Below are positions 1 to 27,287 of a DNA stretch of 64,000 nucleotides, piece after piece (within the stretch, counting starts at the first letter, position 1; each line of letters starts with the position of its first letter). A program made the translations under genes and the position numbers. The notes beneath the pieces are model-generated. The model searched no databases and had not been told where the DNA came from. It saw only the letters and a list, made by a program, of their open reading frames with translations. This DNA is from Eubacteriales bacterium (GTDB lineage: Bacteria > Bacillota > Clostridia > Oscillospirales > UMGS1783), in NCBI GenBank assembly GCA_045541395.1, contig JAZQIZ010000027.1, positions 14,006 to 78,005 on the forward strand, read 5' to 3'.

Positions 1-1697
1 ATTTCCGCAGATGCCTTGGCGCCTACGCTTGCGGCTATTGCACCCAAAGCATTGGCAACCTGGCAGTTTTCCGGCAAAACAGCCTTTGTACCCAGCAATT
101 CTGCTACGTCTTTTAAGAAAATTCCGGCAGGAGCACCTGCGCCAACCAGAGTATAGCCAACCTTAAAGGAGCTTTTGAAAAGGCTGTTTTTCTCATTTGC
201 TTTATTGAAGCTTTCTAAAACAAAGGATTTCACGTCCTCGTTTATGCCGTTTTTAAGGTAATGAGGGTATTCATTTTCCAAAAGGGCAAAAACAATATTT
301 GAATAAAGCTTTTTCTTAACAAGGGAGTATACTCTTTCACATAGCTTTTCTACTTCCATATTCAAATTAAAGGCAACAAACTTAGCGCCTAAAAGAGCGG
401 CTTCTTTATTAAAACTTTCAAAATCACCTTTAATATGCATAATATCTGTTGGAGTAAGGCCGCAAATCTGAACTACACCGTCTTTTAAAAGGCGGTCTAC
501 CTTAAGGGTATATATCTCCTTGCCTACGGCAAAGGCCGCCTGAGCAAGGCTTAAAGGCTTTTTCTTCAGAGCTTCGCAAAAGGCCTTTTCCTCCTCGGAA
601 TAGCGACTGCTTTTGGATATATCCTTTATAAGCACAAAATGCTCATATAAATACTTTGTATGCTTTCTTACTTCCAGATTGCGAAGGTTTTCCAATATAC
701 AGGGATATTTATGTGCGCCTACGCAAAGGGGTAATATTCTGTACTCCTCAAGAAGCAATTCTTCATTTTTGTAGTGTATGGCGCTATCTCCTCCCAAGCC
801 TACAGTTTTAACGTATAGACCGTTTACGAAGGTTTTCCATTTGCCTATGGAAACCCCGCCTGTGGCAGTGGCCGGCAGACCCTTATTTATAAAGGCTATA
901 TCTGTGGTGGTGCCGCCCATATCAACAATAATGCAGTTTTTTTCATCCACAAGTGATTTGCAACCGATAGTACTGGCCGCAGGGCCGCAAAGAAGGGTTT
1001 CAACCGGATGCAGAGAAGCGAATTCTTCGGTCATCAAGCCGCCGTCACTTCTTACAATTACAACGGATTCGGGGTTGATCCCTCTTAGATTAAGAGCCTC
1101 TTTAACCGAAGCCAAAAACTGAGTAATTATTGGAATAAGCCCTGCATTTAAAAGGGTGCCTGCGCCTCTGCGAAGGCAGTTAAGCTCACTGAACAGCTCG
1201 TGGCCGCAAACAACAGGCATATTATGCTGTTTTAAAAACAGCTCCTTGGCGGTTTTTTCGGTTAGATCTCCATTGATCTTGGAGTTCATTTCAATTATTC
1301 CAACTCCGTCCAGGTCCTCAAATCCAACGGCAATATCCTTTTCAAATTCGGGCCAATTGACCTTCTCCTGAATATACATTTGCTCAGAATCCGGCAGGCC
1401 GAACTTTTTTCCGTAATTATCTACAGTATTTTTATCTACTCCAAAGAAAATAAGCTTTGCTCTGCCGCTTTTATCTTCAACACAGGCGTTGGTTGCAAGG
1501 GTTGTAGAAAGAGAAACTACCTGAGCTTTTTTTACAAGGTCCTGAGGCAGGGCGTCTACCGCCCCTAAAATACCGACCTTAAGATCATATTTGGTTGTAA
1601 GGGATTTGGCGCTGCCTAACACCTTGCGGCTTTCAAAATCATAAACCACCGCGTCGGTATAGGTACCGCCTGTATCTATTCCTATTCCGATCTTCAT
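1..1697 (-). CDS. hydantoinase/oxoprolinase-family (ASKHA-fold) ATPase, C-terminal part cut by window edge
   Basis: Absent from the ORF track because it has no stop in the window. Hand translation of the minus strand from ATG 1697 gives 565 codons with no stop: MKIGIGIDTGGTYTDAVVYDF...IVDMGGTTTDIAF...VANALGAIAAS. Two ASKHA phosphate motifs are present. The start overlaps the upstream stop (ATGA at 1694-1697). Confidence 0.75.
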   Translation of the reverse strand, partial: MKIGIGIDTGGTYTDAVVYDFESRKVLGSAKSLTTKYDLKVGILGAVDALPQDLVKKAQVVSLSTTLATNACVEDKSGRAKLIFFGVDKNTVDNYGKKFGLPDSEQMYIQEKVNWPEFEKDIAVGFEDLDGVGIIEMNSKINGDLTEKTAKELFLKQHNMPVVCGHELFSELNCLRRGAGTLLNAGLIPIITQFLASVKEALNLRGINPESVVIVRSDGGLMTEEFASLHPVETLLCGPAASTIGCKSLVDEKNCIIVDMGGTTTDIAFINKGLPATATGGVSIGKWKTFVNGLYVKTVGLGGDSAIHYKNEELLLEEYRILPLCVGAHKYPCILENLRNLEVRKHTKYLYEHFVLIKDISKSSRYSEEEKAFCEALKKKPLSLAQAAFAVGKEIYTLKVDRLLKDGVVQICGLTPTDIMHIKGDFESFNKEAALLGAKFVAFNLNMEVEKLCERVYSLVKKKLYSNIVFALLENEYPHYLKNGINEDVKSFVLESFNKANEKNSLFKSSFKVGYTLVGAGAPAGIFLKDVAELLGTKAVLPENCQVANALGAIAASVGAKASAE

Positions 1698-2545
1698 TTT
1701 TTAAACCTTTCTGCATAACCGCATTTTCTGCACAGCTCTTCCACTACTTTTCTTTTAGAAAAGCCTTCTTTTATTTTTATGGCTCTTTCTGTATTAATAA
1801 TTTCCTCAAGGGTGTTTTCAAATATATTTCCAAGGCCAATAATTCCGTTGCTGTCCAAACAGCAGGGGGTGACCGTACCGTCACACAATACGGCTATTTG
1901 GTTTCTGAGTCCGTAACAAAAACCCTTTTCGCCGTGATCGGAGGCGCTAAGATCCGGCCATTCAAAGCGCTTGCCCCATTCCAAAAACATATATTCGCCA
2001 AGCTTTTGGCCGTTATAACTTTCTTTCCAAGGCTTAGGAAAATTACACTCCAGAAGTTGCAATATCCTCTCATTCTGGGCATTTTGGCCCTTCAAATCGC
2101 CATTATCCAGATTCCAAAGACGTAATACGCAAATAACCTTGTTTTCTTTACATTCTTTTGCAAATTTCACACAGCCCGAAATGTAATCTTCGGTTTTATT
2201 TTCAAGGCCGCACCCTTCAAGGGAGTGCAAAGAAACGCTTACTTTCCTCACTGCTCCGCTTTTAAATATTACAGGAGCCGCTTTTTCCAAAAGGGTGCCG
2301 TTGGTAGTAATATTCACAGGCATACCTTCGGCTTTTGCAATTTCCAGTATTTCAGAAAGCTGTGAGTGGGAAAGAGGTTCACCCATAACGTGAAGATAAA
2401 ACTCCCTGCCAAAAGGCTTTACCTTTTTTGCAATAAGCTTAAATTCCTCCGCTGTCATTTCTTTTTTAATACGGCTGTGTCCGTGGCAAAAGGAACAGGC
2501 AAGATTACATTTATTTGTTATTTCAATATATATCTTTTTAAACAT
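1694..2545 (-). CDS. radical SAM enzyme with C-terminal SPASM/twitch-like Cys-rich domain
   Basis: 283 aa. CNLACSFC (CxxxCxxC) lies near the N-terminus. The C-terminal Cys cluster is FCYG..VLCDGTVTPCC...CRKCGYA. The start overlaps the upstream stop by 1 nt (TAATG). Confidence 0.8.
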   Translation of the reverse strand: MFKKIYIEITNKCNLACSFCHGHSRIKKEMTAEEFKLIAKKVKPFGREFYLHVMGEPLSHSQLSEILEIAKAEGMPVNITTNGTLLEKAAPVIFKSGAVRKVSVSLHSLEGCGLENKTEDYISGCVKFAKECKENKVICVLRLWNLDNGDLKGQNAQNERILQLLECNFPKPWKESYNGQKLGEYMFLEWGKRFEWPDLSASDHGEKGFCYGLRNQIAVLCDGTVTPCCLDSNGIIGLGNIFENTLEEIINTERAIKIKEGFSKRKVVEELCRKCGYAERFKK

Positions 2546-3414
2546 TATAAAACTCCCGTTAAATCAAATTCGGGTGTATATTCTTCTTTGGCAGAGGAAA
2601 GATCCTGAATATAGCCGTCGGTATACCCAAAAGCCTCAAGATAATCCAACACGGTATCATATTCTTCCTGTGTTATTCTTCTTGAAAGCTCTTTAAAGGG
2701 TGTTTCTATATAGGGGGTATACTGACTCATAAGAGAGAACTTTATTTTTTTACCCTCAAAGGTATTGGCAACCCAGTCTATTACCCGCAGGGAATTATCA
2801 ATAGCCTCAGGCAGAATAAGATGGCGGATAATAAGCCCTTTTTTCATTACCCCGTTTTCTATTTCGTAATCCCCTGCCAAATCGTACATTTTAAGTATGG
2901 CTTTTTTAGCCACCTCAAAGTAATCGGGGGCGGAGGAATATTTGAAAGCTAAAGAGTTATCGCTGTATTTTAAATCGGGCAGAAATATATTTACCTTGCC
3001 TCTTAAACGTTCAAGCTGTTCTTCTTTTTCATAGGCGGAGCTGTTCCATACAACGGGAATGCCCAAAGGCGCCTTTAATGATTCCAATATAGGTTCAATA
3101 AAATGAGTAGGCGTTACAAGGTTTATATTGTGAGCGCCTTTATTCTTAAGCATTTCGAATATCTCTCTCAGCCGCAAAGGAGAAACCTCAATTCCCGCGT
3201 TATTTCGGCTTATTTTATGGTTTTGACAATAAACACAACCAAGATTACAGCCCGAGAAAAACACCGTTCCTGAGCCGTTTTTTGCACTGATACAAGGCTC
3301 TTCCCAAAAGTGAAGAGCCGCTCTTGTTACGCAGGCGTTCAAGGGGCTTGAACAAAGCCCGTATTCTGTTCTTCGATCCACGTTGCAAAAACGAGGGCAT
3401 AAACTACATTCCAT
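2545..3414 (-). CDS. radical SAM protein, PflX/pyruvate-formate-lyase-activase-like (COG1313 type)
   Basis: 289 aa. Contains CNLGCVYCQN (CxxxCxxC) and an N-terminal Cys-rich stretch CSLCPRFCNVDRRTEYGLC. No Shine-Dalgarno sequence lies upstream. Confidence 0.75.
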   Translation of the reverse strand: MECSLCPRFCNVDRRTEYGLCSSPLNACVTRAALHFWEEPCISAKNGSGTVFFSGCNLGCVYCQNHKISRNNAGIEVSPLRLREIFEMLKNKGAHNINLVTPTHFIEPILESLKAPLGIPVVWNSSAYEKEEQLERLRGKVNIFLPDLKYSDNSLAFKYSSAPDYFEVAKKAILKMYDLAGDYEIENGVMKKGLIIRHLILPEAIDNSLRVIDWVANTFEGKKIKFSLMSQYTPYIETPFKELSRRITQEEYDTVLDYLEAFGYTDGYIQDLSSAKEEYTPEFDLTGVL

Positions 3415-3421
3415 AAGTAAT

Positions 3422-3450
3422 ATGATACTATCAAATTACCCTAAATGCAA
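3422..3450 (-). promoter_or_regulatory. candidate sigma-A-type promoter (TTGCAT-17-TATCAT) 7 nt upstream of the ATG at 3414
   Basis: Minus strand reads TTGCAT (3450-3445), a 17-nt spacer, TATCAT (3427-3422), ATTACTT, then ATG. No SD is present, so a leaderless start is possible. Confidence 0.3.
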
Positions 3451-3467
3451 GTTTATGCCCTTTATTT

Positions 3468-4556
3468 TTATTTAAAATATTCTACTGCTTTTGCATATAT
3501 CTCGTCAAGCGCAGTTAAGCTTTGCTCTCCCTCTCCCCCAAAATATACTACAGGGCTTTCCAGTGTGGTGCACCAGGACTCTTCACTACCGTTAAAAACC
3601 TTGCCGCTTATAAGATCGCCTAAGGCCTGCGCACTCTGTTCCCCTAACTGAACCCTAAGCGGATCTACTGCGCCGGCTATAGCGCCGCTTTGCAAAGCTT
3701 CGCTGATATTAGGATAATAGTTTCTTGCAACCACAATAAGATCATCTCTGCCGTTGGCCTCCTTTGCCGCAACCCAGGCTTCGTGCATTGATCCGAAAGC
3801 GCCCACCATATCGGGATATTCCTTTATATACTCTGTCATTTTCTGCGTTGCTTCCTGAACTTCCACCCCCTCAAACCTACCGGAACAAAGCGTATAGGGA
3901 GTATTAAGTTCTTTTATTCTTTCAGTAAAGTAATGACTTGAACCCATAGAGCCACCACTACCACCGACGTCTCCTCCCCAGCCTATGGCGCCTTCTTCTA
4001 TACCGTTTTCTATTAACCTATCTACCAGAAAATCAGCGGCCGCCTTGCCGTATTCTTCGTAGTAGTTCACAAAGCTTTTATCTATGAAATCCTTGGTATC
4101 CTTATATTTATGAGGGAAACAGGCTGTCACTACGTAAATTCCCTGCTTCTTTAATCCCTTCATCATTTCGTAGCAGGAATCGTCACCCACCCACATAAGC
4201 ACACCTGCAACAGAATTTTGGGCTATATCTCTTTCCCAAATGTCCATTATTTCTAGAATTGTATATGAACCGCCGACACTCGGACCGGAAACTATAGGCT
4301 TCATACCCAGTTCTTCTGCTTTGGTGAAAAAGCCGTACTGAACTACTCTGTGTACAGGGTGATCTATTGAACCCATACAGCAGGCTATTGTTTTACCCTG
4401 TGATGGTTCTTCCTGCTCACTGCTCTCGGAAACTTCAGGAACGCTACTTTCGGGAGTTTCAGGTGTGCTGCTTTCAGGAACCTCAGGCCCCTTTGCACAA
4501 CCGAAAAGAGCAAGTAACATTGTTAATGCAAGGGCTAAAGATAAAATCTTTTTCAT
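3468..4556 (-). CDS. lipoprotein, type-I periplasmic-binding-protein fold (sugar-ABC/LacI-like solute-binding protein), paralog 1
   Basis: I trimmed the track ORF (to 4637) to MKKILSLALALTMLLALFGC, which has a signal peptide and lipobox. AGGAG lies 8 nt upstream. Ser/Glu/Pro linker follows, then GKTIACCMGSIDHPVHRVVQYGF..KAEELGM, typical of the N-lobe of sugar-binding proteins. Confidence 0.75.
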   Translation of the reverse strand: MKKILSLALALTMLLALFGCAKGPEVPESSTPETPESSVPEVSESSEQEEPSQGKTIACCMGSIDHPVHRVVQYGFFTKAEELGMKPIVSGPSVGGSYTILEIMDIWERDIAQNSVAGVLMWVGDDSCYEMMKGLKKQGIYVVTACFPHKYKDTKDFIDKSFVNYYEEYGKAAADFLVDRLIENGIEEGAIGWGGDVGGSGGSMGSSHYFTERIKELNTPYTLCSGRFEGVEVQEATQKMTEYIKEYPDMVGAFGSMHEAWVAAKEANGRDDLIVVARNYYPNISEALQSGAIAGAVDPLRVQLGEQSAQALGDLISGKVFNGSEESWCTTLESPVVYFGGEGEQSLTALDEIYAKAVEYFK

Positions 4557-4560
4557 ACTA

Positions 4561-5628
4561 TCACTCCTTAAAATATTCCTGCGCGGCGTTATATATATCG
4601 CGGTAGGTTTGAATATCGTTTTTCCCTTCGCCCTCAAGAGTTGCTAAGGGGGCTTCTATAAATTCAAGCCAGGTATCTTCGCTGCTGTTAAATACTATTC
4701 CGTTTACAAGCTCATTCAAAGCAGTAGCACAAGCGGCACCCTCACCATACCAAGGTGTTGCAACTAATGCATCTATTTTGCCATTTAAAACGGTATTTAT
4801 ATTTGCTTCGGTACAATCCAGGCCTATAACTATAATATCCTCTCGGCCTGTATTGGCTCTTGCTTCAGTCCAAGACAAAGCAGAGTATCCTGTAAGGCCT
4901 ATTGCCGCAACCATATCGGGGTTGCTTTCTATATAGTCAGTTATTTGACTTGTTGCATAAGTAACTTCTCCGCCTTCCATTGCTGAACTCAAAACGGTGA
5001 AATTAGGGGCCTTCTCAGCCATAATTTCAATGAAATTATCCATAGCCACAATACCGGAAGGCACACCGGGCCCGCTAAACGAAATGCCTATGGAACCTTC
5101 GGTAATGCCCGACTCTGTCAGCTTATCCAAAATATAATCGACCATCTCAGCGCTGTATTGTTTTTCTGAATAAGCAATATTCTTATCAATAAAGCTTTTT
5201 GTATGCTCATAGCTATGTATATAATGAGGAACGACAGTGCAAACGCCTTGTTCTTTCAGTGTTTTCATCATTTCATAGCAGGAATCGTCGCCTGCCCAAA
5301 TCATGGCACCAACAGCATTGTTAGAAGCGATATCGCTGTTCCATTTATCTATAAGCTCCTGATATGAACCTTCATCAAGGCCGGATATTATAGGGTTCAT
5401 TCCAAGCTCTTGTGCTTTAGTGCAAAAGCCGTACTGAACTACTCTGTATATAGGATGAGCAAATGAACCCATACAGCAGGCTACGGTTTTACCCTGCGCC
5501 AAATTTTCCGATCCGTTGCTTTCGGAATTTTCGGGTGTACTGCTTTCGGGAGCCTCAGGCTCCTTTGCACAGCCGAAAACTCCTAAGGCAAGAATTAAGC
5601 ATAATATTAAACAGATAATTCTTTTCAT
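4561..5628 (-). CDS. lipoprotein solute-binding protein, paralog 2
   Basis: Start trimmed to ATG 5628 (MKRIICLILCLILALGVFGC, lipobox), with GGAGG 8 nt upstream. Same N-lobe motif as paralog 1. The N-terminal ~120 codons are nearly identical in DNA to paralog 3. Confidence 0.75.
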   Translation of the reverse strand: MKRIICLILCLILALGVFGCAKEPEAPESSTPENSESNGSENLAQGKTVACCMGSFAHPIYRVVQYGFCTKAQELGMNPIISGLDEGSYQELIDKWNSDIASNNAVGAMIWAGDDSCYEMMKTLKEQGVCTVVPHYIHSYEHTKSFIDKNIAYSEKQYSAEMVDYILDKLTESGITEGSIGISFSGPGVPSGIVAMDNFIEIMAEKAPNFTVLSSAMEGGEVTYATSQITDYIESNPDMVAAIGLTGYSALSWTEARANTGREDIIVIGLDCTEANINTVLNGKIDALVATPWYGEGAACATALNELVNGIVFNSSEDTWLEFIEAPLATLEGEGKNDIQTYRDIYNAAQEYFKE

Positions 5629-5632
5629 CACA

Positions 5633-6691
5633 TCATCCTCCAAAATATTTATTTGCAGTTTCCTTCAGCGCAATATATTCTTCCAGCTCCGATAAATCTA
5701 TTATTGACCCATTTAATTTTTCATTCCAGGTTGTTTTATTATTAAATTCCACCCCGTTTATTAACTCATACAGAGCAATTGCGGAACATTGACCACCTTC
5801 AAATATTGGTTCATACAAAACTTTATCAATTTCTTTAGATTTTAAGAGTTCAGAAATAGATTTTCCTTCCCTGACAGAAGATTTATCCTGTGCAATTATC
5901 AACATATCGTTGCTTGTCTGCATTCTCGCATTGACCCAGGCATTGGCGTCGGTATCTCCAAGGGCAACGACCGCTACAACAGGGCAACCAAGCTCTTTCT
6001 TATCATTTATAAAATTAACACATTTTTCGGTATCATCTGCAAGTGTGAGATGAGTTAAAAACATTTCCGCATCATACCCTGCCGCTTTAACTTGATCAAT
6101 TGCATTGTAAATATACCCGTTCATCTCCTGATTGGTGTGATGAGTAATAACTACAGTACCATTCGTTATATTATTTTCCACCAGACTGTCCACAATAAAC
6201 GTGGCTGTATCAACACCAAAATCACAATAATCATAATACGGGTTTTTATCTATGAATTTACAAGTACTTTCATAATTATGCGCAAAATACGGCACAACGG
6301 TATAAATCCCCTTCTCCTTCAATGCTTTCATCATTTCGTAGCAGGAATCGTCGCCTGTCCAAATCATGGCACCAACAGCATTGTTAGAAGCGATATCGCT
6401 GTTCCATTTATCTATAAGCTCCTGCATATTGCCTTCATCAAGACCGGATATTATAGGGTTCATTCCAAGCTCTTGTGCTTTAATACAAAATCCGTACTGA
6501 ACTACTCTGTGTACAGGATGAGTAAATGAACCCATACAGCAGGCTATTGTTTTGCCCTGCGCATAATCTTCGGAATCATTGCTTTCGGGAGTTTCGGGGG
6601 TACTGCTTTCAGGAACCTCAGGCTCCTTTGCACAGCCGAATATTCCTAAGGTAAGAATTAAGCATAATATTAAACAGATAATTCTTTTCAT
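5633..6691 (-). CDS. lipoprotein solute-binding protein, paralog 3 (divergent C-lobe)
   Basis: Start trimmed to ATG 6691 (MKRIICLILCLILTLGIFGC), with GGAG upstream. The N-terminal half resembles paralog 2. The C-terminal half is unrelated by eye. Confidence 0.75.
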   Translation of the reverse strand: MKRIICLILCLILTLGIFGCAKEPEVPESSTPETPESNDSEDYAQGKTIACCMGSFTHPVHRVVQYGFCIKAQELGMNPIISGLDEGNMQELIDKWNSDIASNNAVGAMIWTGDDSCYEMMKALKEKGIYTVVPYFAHNYESTCKFIDKNPYYDYCDFGVDTATFIVDSLVENNITNGTVVITHHTNQEMNGYIYNAIDQVKAAGYDAEMFLTHLTLADDTEKCVNFINDKKELGCPVVAVVALGDTDANAWVNARMQTSNDMLIIAQDKSSVREGKSISELLKSKEIDKVLYEPIFEGGQCSAIALYELINGVEFNNKTTWNEKLNGSIIDLSELEEYIALKETANKYFGG

Positions 6692-6723
6692 TGTCAACAC
6701 TCCTTAATAAGCTTTACAGCTTC

Positions 6724-24832: not shown

Positions 24833-25471
24833 TTACCTGAAGGATTCGCCGCTTTCGTGAATGAATTCAACCCTTGTATGTCTGGCAAACACGTCTTCAC
24901 CAACAAAATCCTTAAAGGCGTCCATTAAAGTTACGGCGGTAATTGCACCTGAGGTAGTACAGGGCAATACGCTGTTTATTACAAGCTTACCGTCTTTAGC
25001 CCGGAAAGTCAGTTCTTTGGCCTCAGCCTTAAGATCTATTTCCTTTTGTCCACGCTTACTTTTCTTTGTAACCAAAACCTGTTCCTTTGCCCACATTTCT
25101 TTGAATTTTTCTGCATATTTACCGTCTATCTCGGTTTTAAAACGGGCAAAAGCAATTTCCTTTGCTTTAAACACAGGCTCTCCTACGCTTACGATCTCTA
25201 TGCCTGAAGGAAGCTGTTCATTAAGCTTGGCTATAAGCTCGGTATCCGGCATATCCGAAAGAAGCTTTACATCCAAAAATTCTCTCTCACCTGCCATACC
25301 CAAAGGCAAGGGCTGTCCGAACACCATATAGGGATGCGGGTGAAAACCTTCCGTAAACCAAATGGGCAGTTCCTTTGCAAAGATCGCACGGGAGAAGGCC
25401 CTTGTCATATCAAGATGTGAAGTGAAGCAGGATATATCTTCTTTTTTAAATAAAAATCTAACGTTATTCAA
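24833..25471 (-). CDS. radical-SAM-associated protein (DUF2344 / TIGR03936-type)
   Basis: 212 aa with FTSHLDMTRAFSRA and GFHPHP. Directly downstream of, and overlapping, the TIGR03960-type radical SAM gene. Confidence 0.75.
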   Translation of the reverse strand: MNNVRFLFKKEDISCFTSHLDMTRAFSRAIFAKELPIWFTEGFHPHPYMVFGQPLPLGMAGEREFLDVKLLSDMPDTELIAKLNEQLPSGIEIVSVGEPVFKAKEIAFARFKTEIDGKYAEKFKEMWAKEQVLVTKKSKRGQKEIDLKAEAKELTFRAKDGKLVINSVLPCTTSGAITAVTLMDAFKDFVGEDVFARHTRVEFIHESGESFR

Positions 25472-27287
25472 AGCATTTTACCCCCGTTAGCTTGGTTATT
25501 CCGCAGGCAGAACAATTACCCATACAATCGGGTGTTGTTTGGCTTAAGTAGGCTTTTTGGTTCTCTTTTTGCAAAAACCTTTTGCTTACACCCGCGTTTA
25601 TCATATCCCAGGGAAGGATCTCCTCAAGGTCACGTTTGCGGTAAGCATAGGCATCGGCATTTATATTAAGCTCATTAAATGCCTCTTCCCATATTTCGGG
25701 CTTAAAGGTCTCATCCCAGCTATCGAAGCGGCAACCCTTTTGGTAGGCCGAAACAATGGCGGGAGCAATTCTTCTGTCACCTCTTGCCATAATGGCTTCA
25801 AGGCGGCTTACTTCAGGATCGTGCCACTTTAAGGAAATTTTCTTGGTAGTAAGGCTTTCTTTAAGAAGCTTCTGGCGGCGGGCAATCTCCTCTCCGGTTA
25901 TCTGGGCTTCCCATTGGAAAGGAGTAAAGGGCTTAGGAACAAAGGTTGCAAGAGAAATGCTTATTTCCACACCCTTACCTTTTCTTCTTGTTTCAAGATG
26001 GTAATAAAGATTCACAATTTTCTGGGCAAGAGTTGCAATAGCTACAATATCCTCATCGGTCTCGGTAGGAAGACCCATCATAAAATACATTTTTACCGAG
26101 GTATAGCCCTGTTCAAATGCGGCTTTGCAGGTTTTTAAAATATCTTCTTCGGTAATGTTTTTATTTATTGCATCACGAAGGCGCTGAGACCCTGCCTCCG
26201 GCGCAAAGGTAAGACCGCTTTTTCTTATTCCGCCAAGCTTTTCAAGAAGAGTCTTGGGGGTATTGTCTATTCTTAAAGAAGGCAGAGAAAGGCCTATATG
26301 GCGAGGCCTTGTATATTCCGAAAAGCTATCGAACAGCCCCTCAATATCGGGGTAATCACTTGAAGAAAGTGAAAGAAGGGATATTTCATCATAGCCTGTA
26401 CATCTGCACTGCTCTACTGCGTTATTCTTAAGAAGCTCCTTGCTTCTGAATCGGGCAGGGCGGTATATCATACCGGCCTGACAAAAACGGCAGCCTCTTA
26501 TACAGCCCCTGAACAGCTCAATAGCTACACGGTCATGGATAGCCTGAATAGTGGGAACAATGGGCTTTTTAGGAATAAAGCAATTTTCAAAATCGGAAAT
26601 AATATATCTGTCAACCTGTTTTTCGGGGCTTATGGACTTGATTTTATCTCCATCATATTCAACTTCATAAAGAGAAGGAACGTAAACGCTTTTAATGTTG
26701 CTTGCCTTTTTTAAGAATTCTTTTTTAGATATACCCTTTTCCTTGCATTCTTTATACAGATCAAGTATCTGCATCATGCTCTCCTCGCCGTCACCTATGG
26801 AAATAAGGTCAAAAAAGGGTGCAACAGGCTCGCTGTTAACGGCGCAGGGGCCACCTGCTATTATAAGAGGGTATTCCTCACCTCTGTCCTTTGCGTAAAA
26901 AGGGATACCCGCAAGGTCGAGCATTAAAAGAATATTGGTGTAATTAAGCTCAAACTGCAAAGTAAAGCCTATAATATCAAAGGCAGTCAAAGGGTCCTTA
27001 CTTTCAAGGGCAAAAAGAGGGATATTGTTTTCTCTGAGCTGAGCTTCCATATCCTCGGGAGGCGCAAAGCATCTTTCGCACCAGGAATCAGAACGGGAGT
27101 TTATAAGCTCATAAAGAATTTTAAGGCCTAAGTTGCTCATACCCACTTCATACATATCGGGATAACAAAAAGCAAAACGAAGGGATACTTCGTCTTTATT
27201 TTTCATTACCTGATTTTTTTCGCCGCCGATATAACGGCCGGGCTTTTGCACCTTATAAAGAATTCTTTCTATTTTTTCATCAAACAT
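25464..27287 (-). CDS. B12-binding-domain radical SAM protein (TIGR03960-type)
   Basis: 607 aa with RGCIRGCRFCQAG. The N-terminal region is B12-binding-like. Confidence 0.8.
   Translation of the reverse strand: MFDEKIERILYKVQKPGRYIGGEKNQVMKNKDEVSLRFAFCYPDMYEVGMSNLGLKILYELINSRSDSWCERCFAPPEDMEAQLRENNIPLFALESKDPLTAFDIIGFTLQFELNYTNILLMLDLAGIPFYAKDRGEEYPLIIAGGPCAVNSEPVAPFFDLISIGDGEESMMQILDLYKECKEKGISKKEFLKKASNIKSVYVPSLYEVEYDGDKIKSISPEKQVDRYIISDFENCFIPKKPIVPTIQAIHDRVAIELFRGCIRGCRFCQAGMIYRPARFRSKELLKNNAVEQCRCTGYDEISLLSLSSSDYPDIEGLFDSFSEYTRPRHIGLSLPSLRIDNTPKTLLEKLGGIRKSGLTFAPEAGSQRLRDAINKNITEEDILKTCKAAFEQGYTSVKMYFMMGLPTETDEDIVAIATLAQKIVNLYYHLETRRKGKGVEISISLATFVPKPFTPFQWEAQITGEEIARRQKLLKESLTTKKISLKWHDPEVSRLEAIMARGDRRIAPAIVSAYQKGCRFDSWDETFKPEIWEEAFNELNINADAYAYRKRDLEEILPWDMINAGVSKRFLQKENQKAYLSQTTPDCMGNCSACGITKLTGVKCFE

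What the first reader, a model, noticed from the sequence alone, without database searches (positions are those of the whole stretch)
1..3450. Translationally coupled PflX-like rSAM / SPASM rSAM / hydantoinase-like ATPase triad with no visible substrate gene
Three minus-strand genes are joined by overlapping stop and start codons (TAATG at 2543-2547, ATGA at 1694-1697), which implies co-translation and a stoichiometric relationship.
- Gene 1 has CNLGCVYC plus extra N-terminal Cys pairs, like the PflX-type activase homologues.
- Gene 2 has CNLACSFC plus a C-terminal SPASM-like Cys cluster.
- Gene 3 (hand-translated, truncated at the window edge) has the two ASKHA phosphate motifs of hydantoinase/oxoprolinase-type ATPases.

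No glycyl-radical enzyme, RiPP precursor-sized ORF or known partner is visible in the window. I cannot name a characterised pathway that combines two radical-SAM enzymes with an ATP-dependent hydantoinase-type enzyme. The operon sits 53 nt downstream of three solute-binding lipoprotein genes with no terminator between them. A ligand-capture plus radical-chemistry unit is therefore conceivable.
Basis: partly seen in the sequence, partly recalled or inferred. Interest (0 to 1): 0.65.

Follow-up and report, generated by a model that had tools for sequence, protein, structure and literature searches.

The report
Three unrelated genes packed together
The three overlapping genes (two radical-SAM enzymes and a hydantoinase-like ATPase) are real and correctly typed, but in about 180 other sampled loci each one sits alone among unrelated housekeeping genes, so the trio is most likely a local gene order and not a new pathway.

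Summary
The sequence observation holds. Three intact minus-strand genes are present:
- g1, 3414-2545: a PflA-fold radical SAM with CNLGCVYC and an N-terminal Cys4 motif.
- g2, 2545-1694: a radical SAM with a SPASM/twitch domain, CNLACSFC.
- g3, 1697-<1: full length 650 aa, a HyuA-like ASKHA ATPase.

- The triad was seen directly in only one relative, L005. L005 shares the whole surrounding gene order (pnp, M16 peptidase, PBP5, three binding proteins). A second relative is inferred from matching contig lengths.
- Of 82 distinct g2-anchored loci, 83 distinct g3-anchored loci and 17 of 21 further g1-anchored loci, none has another triad member within 6-8 kb.
- g1 and g2 recur near each other in two further lineages: L169 (overlapping, different flanks) and L175-177 (separated by mutY and tdk).
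- g3 never recurs with g1 or g2.
- Start/stop overlaps are routine here: 12 of 38 co-directional neighbour pairs in the window overlap.
- No curated NCBIfam model reaches its cutoff for any of the three. I found no glycyl-radical enzyme, no room for a precursor ORF between the three genes, and no HyuB.

Verdict: three widespread, uncharacterised Clostridia gene families joined in a lineage-specific operon. Interest is low.

The parts
2545..3414 (-). g1: 289-aa radical-SAM protein of the uncharacterised PflX/COG1313-type family. It has a PflA-like fold, an N-terminal Cys3/6/10/21 motif and the SAM cluster motif C56-x3-C60-x2-C63.
   Evidence: ORF. Pfam PF04055 (44.5 bits) and PF13353. NCBIfam activase models score far below cutoff. 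All seven Cys are invariant in 21 homologues. AlphaFold2 (AF2) model pLDDT 84; best Foldseek hit is PFL-AE 3c8f/3cb8.
1694..2545 (-). g2: 283-aa radical-SAM protein with a short C-terminal SPASM/twitch-type domain.
   Evidence: ORF. PF04055 (63.2 bits) and PF13186 (53.2 bits). Only five conserved C-terminal Cys. The best solved relative by profile is BtrN, E = 1.3e-13.
1..1697 (-). g3: the first 565 of 650 residues of a HyuA-like (hydantoinase A / acetone carboxylase beta type) ASKHA ATPase. It is cut by the window edge.
   Evidence: Translation. Full-length identical protein P0001. PF05378 and PF01968. AF2 model pLDDT 77; top Foldseek hits are 5m45_B, 9h03_A, 5l9w_b and 6yra_A.
3415..3462 (-). 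Conserved intergenic element directly upstream of g1. It carries a promoter-like TTGCAT (3450-3445), a 17-nt spacer and TATCAT (3427-3422), which ends 7 nt before the ATG. There is no Shine-Dalgarno sequence.
   Evidence: 47/48 identical to L005, against 70 % identity over the whole g1-g3 alignment. The best 48-nt windows of the 3.48-kb alignment all lie here. The function is inferred, not shown.

Best explanation
The three ORFs are real genes that belong to three separate, large, functionally uncharacterised protein families common in Clostridia.
- g1 is a PflA-fold radical-SAM enzyme with an extra N-terminal four-Cys site.
- g2 is a compact radical-SAM enzyme with a single-cluster SPASM/twitch domain, of the BtrN type.
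- g3 is a 650-aa HyuA-like ATPase with no HyuB partner.

In this lineage they have been packed head-to-tail into one short operon, inside a block of housekeeping genes (infB ... pnp, M16 peptidase, PBP5). The operon probably has its own promoter just upstream of g1.

The packing is a local, vertically inherited gene order, not a conserved module. In other lineages each gene occurs alone in unrelated contexts, so each most likely does its own job.

Inferred chemistry (not shown):
- g1 and g2 each cleave SAM reductively to a 5'-deoxyadenosyl radical and abstract hydrogen from separate, unknown substrates.
- g3 hydrolyses ATP. Part of its family sits in corrinoid methyltransferase clusters or is fused to DUF2284, which hints at an ATP-dependent accessory role there. 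None of those partners is present in this window.
For: Shown:
- Domains and motifs; folds.
- No curated equivalog reaches its cutoff.
- The triad is present in L005 together with the complete flanking synteny. Protein identity to the window is 97.5 % for PNPase, 79 % for M16, 77 % for PBP5, 82 % for g1, 65 % for g2 and 66 % for g3.
- 0/82 distinct g2-anchored loci (79 species genomes plus 3 metagenome contigs, 46-54 % identity, up to +-8 kb) contain g1 or g3 at E <= 1e-6.
- 0/83 distinct g3-anchored loci (43-63 % identity, up to +-6-10 kb; 56 have more than 1.2 kb upstream) contain g1 or g2.
- g1 homologues in L170-174 and L178-189 stand alone.
- Recurrent neighbours of g2 are dnaX, ybaB and an Amidase_6 protein. 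Neighbours of g1 are an SH3_3 protein and ruvCAB. All are housekeeping genes.
- Overlaps are common in the window, 12/38 pairs.
- GC content of the triad (0.39-0.44) matches its surroundings.
- A conserved promoter-like element lies directly upstream of g1.
Against: - The g1/g2 one-base overlap is kept in L005, although nucleotide identity is only about 70 %.
- g1-g2 are also adjacent, with an 8-nt overlap, in L169, where the flanks differ (tRNA synthetase upstream, NERD protein downstream).
- In L175-177, g2 and g1 lie 1.8 kb apart on the same strand.
- All three functions are unknown, so a shared pathway cannot be excluded by annotation.
- The sampled loci are the best-scoring ones and are dominated by Oscillospiraceae (g2) and termite-gut communities (g3). 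Many metagenome contigs have short flanks.
- I could not test genome-level co-occurrence of the three families.
Confidence: 0.7

Rival explanations
1. g1 and g2 are a functional pair: two radical-SAM enzymes acting on the same substrate or on successive steps. The pairing would hold in a sub-clade of Clostridia, with g3 a passenger gene in the same operon.
For: - g1-g2 are adjacent and overlapping in the window, in L005 and in L169. In L169 the flanks are different, a terminator hairpin and an AAGGAG ribosome-binding site precede g1, and g3 is absent.
- g2 and g1 lie within 1.8 kb on one strand in L175-177.
Against: - 0/82 g2-anchored loci have g1 within 8 kb.
- g1 stands alone in L170-174 and L178-189.
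- In L175-177 the genes between them are mutY and tdk, which are unrelated housekeeping genes.
- L169 is a fairly close relative (70 % and 56 % identity), so the pair may simply have been inherited once.
- With a 16-kb search span in a genome assumed (not measured) to be 2.5-3 Mb, two extra proximal lineages among roughly 100 is not clearly above chance. This is my own rough estimate: expectation about 0.6.
- No g1-g2 fusion appears among the 120 listed hits of either family.
Confidence: 0.15
2. All three proteins, possibly with the three upstream lipoprotein binding proteins, form one stoichiometric ligand-capture plus radical-chemistry plus ATP-dependent unit acting on an unseen substrate.
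For: - Tight coupling of the three genes.
- No minus-strand terminator-like site in the 53-nt gap after the binding-protein genes.
- The same order, including the three binding-protein genes, occurs in L005.
Against: - g3 never co-localises with g1 or g2 outside the synteny block (0/83).
- The g2/g3 overlap is not kept in L005.
- The binding-protein genes are absent next to g1-g2 in L169.
- The binding proteins are only 42-47 % identical between the window and L005, while g1 is 82 % identical. That does not look like co-evolution.
- A conserved promoter-like element lies between the binding-protein genes and g1.
- I saw no ABC permease or ATPase genes next to the binding-protein genes.
Confidence: 0.06
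3. The genes belong to an already characterised maturation or cofactor system, such as glycyl-radical enzyme activation, RiPP maturation, a MoaA or tungsten-cofactor type maturase, or hydantoinase/oxoprolinase HyuAB.
For: - Weak partial matches to activase models (T4HPD activase 33 bits, NrdG2 28 bits), to W_rSAM_matur and MoaA (about 70 bits, N-terminal half only) and to caprolactamase alpha (74 bits).
- The g1 fold is closest to PFL-AE.
Against: - Every one of these scores is 5- to 15-fold below the curated cutoff.
- No glycyl-radical enzyme among the largest ORFs of the window, and none in the five gene-annotated g1 loci.
- The overlaps and the 53-nt gap leave no room for a precursor-sized ORF between the three genes.
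- No HyuB (PF02538) next to g3 in L001, L003, L004 or L005, and none among the recurrent neighbours of 83 g3 loci.
Confidence: 0.03

Closest known systems
Pyruvate formate-lyase activating enzyme (PflA; PDB 3c8f/3cb8) and other glycyl-radical-enzyme activases, compared with g1
   Same: Partial TIM-barrel radical-SAM fold: Foldseek E = 6e-9, TM-score 0.55-0.68. GCNLxCxYCQN-type cluster motif near the N-terminus. Pfam Fer4_12 hit.
   Different: Only 16 % identity. PFLA and PFLE_PFLC models score 21-24 bits against cutoffs of 174-232. There is an extra invariant N-terminal Cys3/6/10/21 motif and a conserved C-terminal SSAKEEYTPxFDLTG tail. No glycyl-radical enzyme was seen among the window's largest ORFs or in the five gene-annotated g1 loci.
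BtrN and other twitch/SPASM radical-SAM enzymes (PDB 4m7s; SkfB 6efn; anSME 4k37), compared with g2
   Same: CxxxCxxC core followed by a C-terminal Cys-rich auxiliary-cluster domain. The profile hit to BtrN has E = 1.3e-13, and the size is similar (283 against about 270 aa).
   Different: The profile match covers mainly the N-terminal 110 residues. Only five conserved C-terminal Cys are present, not the seven of a full SPASM domain. There is no aminoglycoside, RiPP or sulfatase context. The gene stands alone next to dnaX-ybaB in many genomes.
HyuA-type ATPase subunits: acetone carboxylase beta (5m45_B), N-methylhydantoinase (9h03), acetophenone carboxylase (5l9w), caprolactamase alpha (6yra), compared with g3
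   Same: Both Pfam domains and invariant ASKHA phosphate motifs. Full-length fold similarity, E about 1e-18, TM-score about 0.5.
   Different: 14-16 % identity. Only positions 1-153 of the 291-position Hydantoinase_A profile are matched. CapA scores 74 bits against a cutoff of 1000. No HyuB-type partner is nearby. The C-terminal 300 residues are family-specific and strongly conserved.
[quoted passage not shown]
   Same: Same annotation and the same length class as g3 homologues (666-668 aa). In my sample, g3 homologues in L136 and L165/166/168 lie close to MttB-like, corrinoid-protein and RACo-like genes, and L104, L149 and L156 lie close to URO-D-type methyltransferase genes.
   Different: I could not obtain that protein's sequence, so homology to g3 is inferred from length and annotation only. 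No corrinoid, MttB, RACo or DUF2284 gene is present in the 64-kb window.
GlmL/MutL accessory protein of glutamate mutase, compared with g3
   Same: The N-terminal phosphate-1 region matches PF13941 (31 bits, residues 7-57).
   Different: The NCBIfam GlmL model scores 31 bits against a cutoff of 475. The match is limited to about 50 residues.

Membership tests
Glycyl-radical enzyme activating enzymes (PflA/PflC/NrdG; TIGR02493, TIGR02494, TIGR02495), tested for g1 | Score at or above the curated family cutoff | tested here: not met
   21.3 bits against a cutoff of 231.75, 24.1 against 174.35, and 28 against 131.15
Glycyl-radical enzyme activating enzymes, tested for g1 | Radical-SAM CX3CX2C cluster motif and PflA-like fold | tested here: met
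   C56/C60/C63 are invariant. Top Foldseek hit is PFL-AE.
Glycyl-radical enzyme activating enzymes, tested for g1 | A cognate glycyl-radical enzyme encoded nearby | tested here: not met
   No PFL-like or Gly_radical protein among the ten largest other ORFs of the window, and none in the gene tables of L169-L174.
SPASM/twitch radical-SAM enzymes (PF13186), tested for g2 | SPASM domain above the Pfam gathering score, after a radical-SAM core | tested here: met
   PF13186 scores 53.2 bits against 21.5. PF04055 scores 63.2 bits.
SPASM/twitch radical-SAM enzymes, tested for g2 | Full seven-Cys SPASM motif binding two auxiliary clusters | tested here: not met
   Only Cys210, 228, 229, 272 and 275 are invariant, and Cys125 nearly so. 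This fits a single auxiliary cluster (twitch-like). The cluster count itself cannot be tested with these tools.
RiPP maturase systems (SkfB, StsB, PqqE, mycofactocin types), tested for g2 | Curated model cutoff reached, and a precursor peptide gene adjacent | tested here: not met
   The best such models score 37-49 bits against cutoffs of 265-625. The overlaps and the 53-nt gap leave no room for a precursor ORF next to g2. No recurrent small neighbour appears in 82 loci.
Hydantoinase/oxoprolinase A subunit (HyuA; PF05378 + PF01968), tested for g3 | Both Pfam domains above gathering score, with ASKHA ATP-binding motifs | tested here: met
   61.0 and 111.8 bits. The motifs are invariant in 17 homologues. 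The fold matches HyuA-type subunits.
Hydantoinase/oxoprolinase/acetone-carboxylase holoenzymes, tested for g3 | Partner HyuB-type (PF02538) subunit encoded alongside, and a curated equivalog score | tested here: not met
   No PF02538 gene in L001, L003, L004 or L005. No such cluster among the recurrent neighbours. CapA scores 73.8 bits against 1000, and ApcC 33.6 against 1500.
GlmL/MutL mutase accessory protein, tested for g3 | NCBIfam NF040745 cutoff reached | tested here: not met
   31.3 bits against 475, covering residues 6-61 only.
Conserved three-gene module (the proposed triad) | Adjacency kept in relatives beyond shared whole-region synteny | tested here: not met
   0/82 g2-anchored and 0/83 g3-anchored loci. 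The triad was seen directly only in L005, which also shares all the flanking genes. A second genome is inferred from matching contig lengths.

The most novel reading that the evidence does not exclude
In a small clade of Clostridia, the PflX-type radical-SAM enzyme g1 and the twitch-type radical-SAM enzyme g2 work as a two-enzyme radical system on a still unknown metabolite or protein. In the window's lineage the system would have recruited the HyuA-like ATPase g3 as an ATP-dependent helper, for example for substrate activation or for maintenance of a redox cofactor. That role would be analogous to the one hinted at for g3 relatives in corrinoid methyltransferase clusters.
Probability: 0.08. 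Interest if true: 0.6.

Novelty: new member of a known kind. Interest (0 to 1): 0.2.

Why it matters
As a triad it matters little. The evidence says this is a local gene arrangement and not a new pathway, so it should not be promoted as a candidate system.

Three things of residual value remain:
- The weak but repeated g1-g2 proximity gives one testable lead for these orphan families.
- The association of part of the g3 family with DUF2284 and corrinoid methyltransferase genes gives a second testable lead.

Tried and rejected
- **Exact look-ups.** Look-ups of the window's own g2 and of the full-length g3 (P0001), meant to read the DNA left of position 1, found nothing on record. The source contig could not be extended. 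What lies downstream of g3 is known only from L005, where it is a convergent feoB-feoA.
- **Source organism.** The genome scan did not return the source genome (best hit 54 % identity).
- **Literature.** Searches for 'PflX' returned only unrelated uses of the string, mostly pefloxacin. 'COG1313' returned nothing. 'DUF2284' returned two papers that each mention it once; I did not read them. PMC10418091, on mlp methyltransferase clusters, does not mention hydantoinase or radical SAM.
- **Rfam.** Only three tRNAs were found and no riboswitch, so there is no ligand hint for the binding-protein genes or the triad.
- **Scanner promoter hit.** The site at 3508-3479 (TTGACG-18-TAGAAT) is not conserved in L005, so I set it aside in favour of the conserved TTGCAT-17-TATCAT element.
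- **RNA structure.** The conserved 5' block of g1 folds no better than shuffled sequence (z = -1.57).
- **Possible g1 fusion.** P0243, a 493-aa g1 hit, is a tandem or chimeric duplicate of g1-like sequence and not a fusion to another domain.
- **ORF after g3 in L001.** The 171-aa ORF is a weak AAA_33-type kinase-like hit, not DUF2284.
- **Horizontal transfer.** GC content is like that of the neighbours. The high PNPase identity to L005 (97.5 % protein) goes with only about 80 % nucleotide identity, so it reflects constraint and not recent transfer.
- **AFDB fold search.** The library was unavailable.

Full report
**1. What is in the sequence**

On the minus strand of 1-3414 there are three intact, tightly packed ORFs.
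- g1 runs 3414..2545 and has 289 aa.
- g2 runs 2545..1694 and has 283 aa.
- g3 starts at 1697 and runs off the window edge with 565 aa visible. A 100 % identical database protein, P0001, shows that the full length is 650 aa.

The g1 stop and the g2 start share one base (TAATG, 2547-2543). The g3 start overlaps the g2 stop by four bases (ATGA, 1697-1694). The gap to the upstream lipoprotein gene is 53 nt, with no terminator-like site on the minus strand.

**2. Domain identities**

- Radical_SAM plus Fer4_12 for g1.
- Radical_SAM plus SPASM for g2.
- Hydant_A_N plus Hydantoinase_A, with a weak MutL match, for g3.

Against NCBIfam no curated model comes near its cutoff.
- Activase models score 20-33 bits for g1 against cutoffs of 126-425.
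- The tungsten-cofactor maturase and MoaA models score about 70 bits for g2, on the N-terminal half only, against cutoffs of 231-380.
- Caprolactamase alpha scores 74 bits for g3 against a cutoff of 1000.

Family alignments show the following.
- In g1, an N-terminal Cys3/6/10/21 motif, the SAM-cluster Cys56/60/63 and a conserved C-terminal tail are invariant.
- In g2, only five C-terminal Cys are conserved. That fits one auxiliary cluster and not the two of a full SPASM domain.
- In g3, both ASKHA phosphate motifs and a strongly conserved, family-specific C-terminal half are invariant.

Solved-structure comparisons agree with this.
- The g2 profile is closest to BtrN.
- g1 has no sequence-level relative in the PDB. 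Its AlphaFold2 (AF2) model (pLDDT 84) is closest to PFL activating enzyme.
- The g3 model (pLDDT 77) aligns over its full length with HyuA-type subunits of acetone and acetophenone carboxylase, N-methylhydantoinase and caprolactamase, at TM-score about 0.5 and 14-16 % identity.

**3. Is the triad a conserved unit?**

*Where the triad is kept.*
- The relative L005 (GCA_054285345.1) keeps g1-g2-g3. It also keeps the entire surrounding order: rpsO, pnp, M16 peptidase, PBP5-type carboxypeptidase, three Peripla_BP_4 genes, the triad, then a convergent feoB-feoA.
- Protein identity between the window and L005 ranges from 97.5 % (PNPase) through 77-82 % (PBP5, M16, g1) to 65-66 % (g2, g3) and 42-47 % (binding proteins). 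Nucleotide identity is 70-80 %. This is shared ancestry of a whole region.
- In L005 the g2/g3 overlap is replaced by a 3-nt gap.
- A second genome probably carries all three, because hits to each share a 19,154-bp contig length. That is an inference.

*Where it is not kept.*
- A scan of one genome per species returned 80 g2 loci at 46-54 % identity with up to 8 kb on each side. Together with three metagenome loci, none contains a g1 or g3 homologue at E <= 1e-6. That is 0 of 82 distinct places.
- A metagenome scan returned 80 g3 loci at 43-63 % identity. With L001, L003 and L004, none contains g1 or g2. That is 0 of 83 distinct places, of which 56 have more than 1.2 kb upstream.
- g1 homologues at 58-60 % identity lie after an SH3_3 gene next to ruvCAB, or after DUF1846.
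- Twelve more g1 loci from the viral-contig collection also lack g2 and g3.
- Recurrent neighbours of g2 are dnaX, ybaB and an Amidase_6 protein.

**4. What remains of a linkage**

g1 and g2 recur together in two other lineages.
- In L169 (g1 70 %, g2 56 % identity) they are adjacent with an 8-nt overlap. The flanks are different: a tRNA synthetase and a terminator hairpin upstream, a NERD protein downstream. There is no g3.
- In L175-177 the order is g2, mutY, tdk, g1 on one strand.

L169 is a fairly close relative, and the intervening genes in L175-177 are unrelated housekeeping genes. This is weak evidence, but it keeps a g1-g2 pairing alive as a rival reading. g3 was never seen with either gene outside the synteny block.

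**5. How much does the overlap mean?**

With a simple longest-ORF gene model, 12 of 38 co-directional neighbouring pairs in this window overlap. Six of them overlap by 1 or 4 nt. Overlaps are the normal packing style of this genome. They do not by themselves indicate stoichiometric partnership.

**6. Relation to the binding-protein genes**

The three upstream genes are tandem paralogues. Two match Peripla_BP_4; the third has no Pfam hit but is paralogous to the others. All three have lipobox-type signal peptides. I saw no ABC permease or ATPase genes next to them.

Three observations argue against a link to the triad.
- They diverge much faster than the triad between the window and L005.
- They are absent next to g1-g2 in L169.
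- The 48 nt directly upstream of the g1 start (3415-3462) are 47/48 identical to L005, against 70 % identity overall. The best 48-nt windows of the whole 3.48-kb alignment all lie in this element and the first 19 or so codons of g1.

The element contains TTGCAT, a 17-nt spacer and TATCAT, which ends 7 nt before the ATG, with no Shine-Dalgarno sequence. My inference, not shown, is that g1 has its own promoter and may be translated from a leaderless mRNA. The absent ribosome-binding site would also explain why the public gene calls for g1 start at an internal TTG (P0244 with 210 aa, P0248 with 202 aa) and so lose the radical-SAM motif.

**7. Side lead on g3**

Twelve of the 83 g3 loci carry a DUF2284 domain (fused or adjacent) or a component of a corrinoid methyltransferase system. 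The components seen are URO-D-type methyltransferase, B12-binding corrinoid protein, MttB-like methyltransferase and RACo-like activator. Only 1 of the 82 g2 loci has any of these.

[quoted passage not shown] This suggests that part of the family serves corrinoid methyl-transfer systems. No such gene is in this window, and several of the 12 loci are near-duplicates of each other, so this is only a lead.

**8. Conclusion**

The three genes do not form a conserved module and do not belong to any characterised maturation or cofactor system.

The best-supported reading (confidence about 0.7) is that three independent, widespread, uncharacterised Clostridia genes have been packed into one lineage-specific operon within a housekeeping region. 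A functional g1-g2 pair is possible (about 0.15). The full triad, with or without the binding proteins, is unlikely (about 0.06).

The finding is a new member of known kinds and of low interest as a system.

Noticed in passing
window 3358-3462 (-); L005 9084-9190: A block of about 105 nt, made of the 48-nt intergenic region plus the first 19 or so codons of g1, is about 96 % identical to L005, synonymous sites included. The surrounding alignment is 70 % identical. The block holds TTGCAT-17-TATCAT ending 7 nt before the ATG, with no Shine-Dalgarno sequence. This could be a dedicated promoter with a leaderless start, or another element that acts at the nucleotide level.
   Followed up: partly
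window 2545-3414 (-); proteins P0244, P0248: In the protein collection searched, g1 of the source genome and of L005 appears as a 210-aa and a 202-aa protein starting at an internal TTG. These calls lack the conserved N-terminal 79 or more residues with the CX3CX2C motif, and therefore carry no Pfam hit. The full 289-aa ORF is conserved in 20 homologues.
   Followed up: yes
loci L004, L091, L095, L103, L107 (DUF2284); L136, L165, L166, L168 (MttB, B12-binding and RACo genes; L165, L166 and L168 also have URO-D and DUF2284); L104, L149, L156 (URO-D only): Part of the g3 family is fused to or adjacent to DUF2284, or sits inside corrinoid methyltransferase clusters. This matches a 668-aa protein of unknown role that is induced on glycine betaine in strain DCMF (PMC9768040). 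A role as an ATP-dependent accessory factor of corrinoid methyl transfer is possible.
   Followed up: partly
window 3468-6700 (-): Three tandem paralogous lipoprotein solute-binding genes: two match Peripla_BP_4, the third has no Pfam hit. I saw no adjacent ABC permease or ATPase genes. They are only 42-47 % identical to their L005 counterparts, while the neighbouring housekeeping genes are 77-97 % identical. They are fast-evolving orphan binding proteins.
   Followed up: partly
L175-L177 (IMG/VR contigs), e.g. L177 3361-6870: g2, mutY, tdk and g1 lie on one strand, next to a large serine recombinase-like ORF (L177 666-2321). The contigs are filed as viral, but this part looks like host chromosome at a prophage or integrative-element border.
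   Followed up: partly
window 25464-27287 (-): A further radical-SAM gene (607 aa, Radical_SAM_N2 plus Radical_SAM). It overlaps both of its neighbours by 8 nt, which shows again that overlaps are routine in this genome.
   Followed up: no
protein P0243 (493 aa, ENA contig of 6884 bp): A g1-family hit that consists of about 1.7 tandem copies of g1-like sequence. It is probably an assembly chimera or a recent tandem duplication, not a domain fusion.
   Followed up: partly
L001 7094-12004 and L002: In one Clostridia lineage the g3 homologue directly follows the proline-biosynthesis genes proC, proB and proA. This is curious given the oxoprolinase-like annotation, but it was seen in one lineage only.
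   Followed up: no
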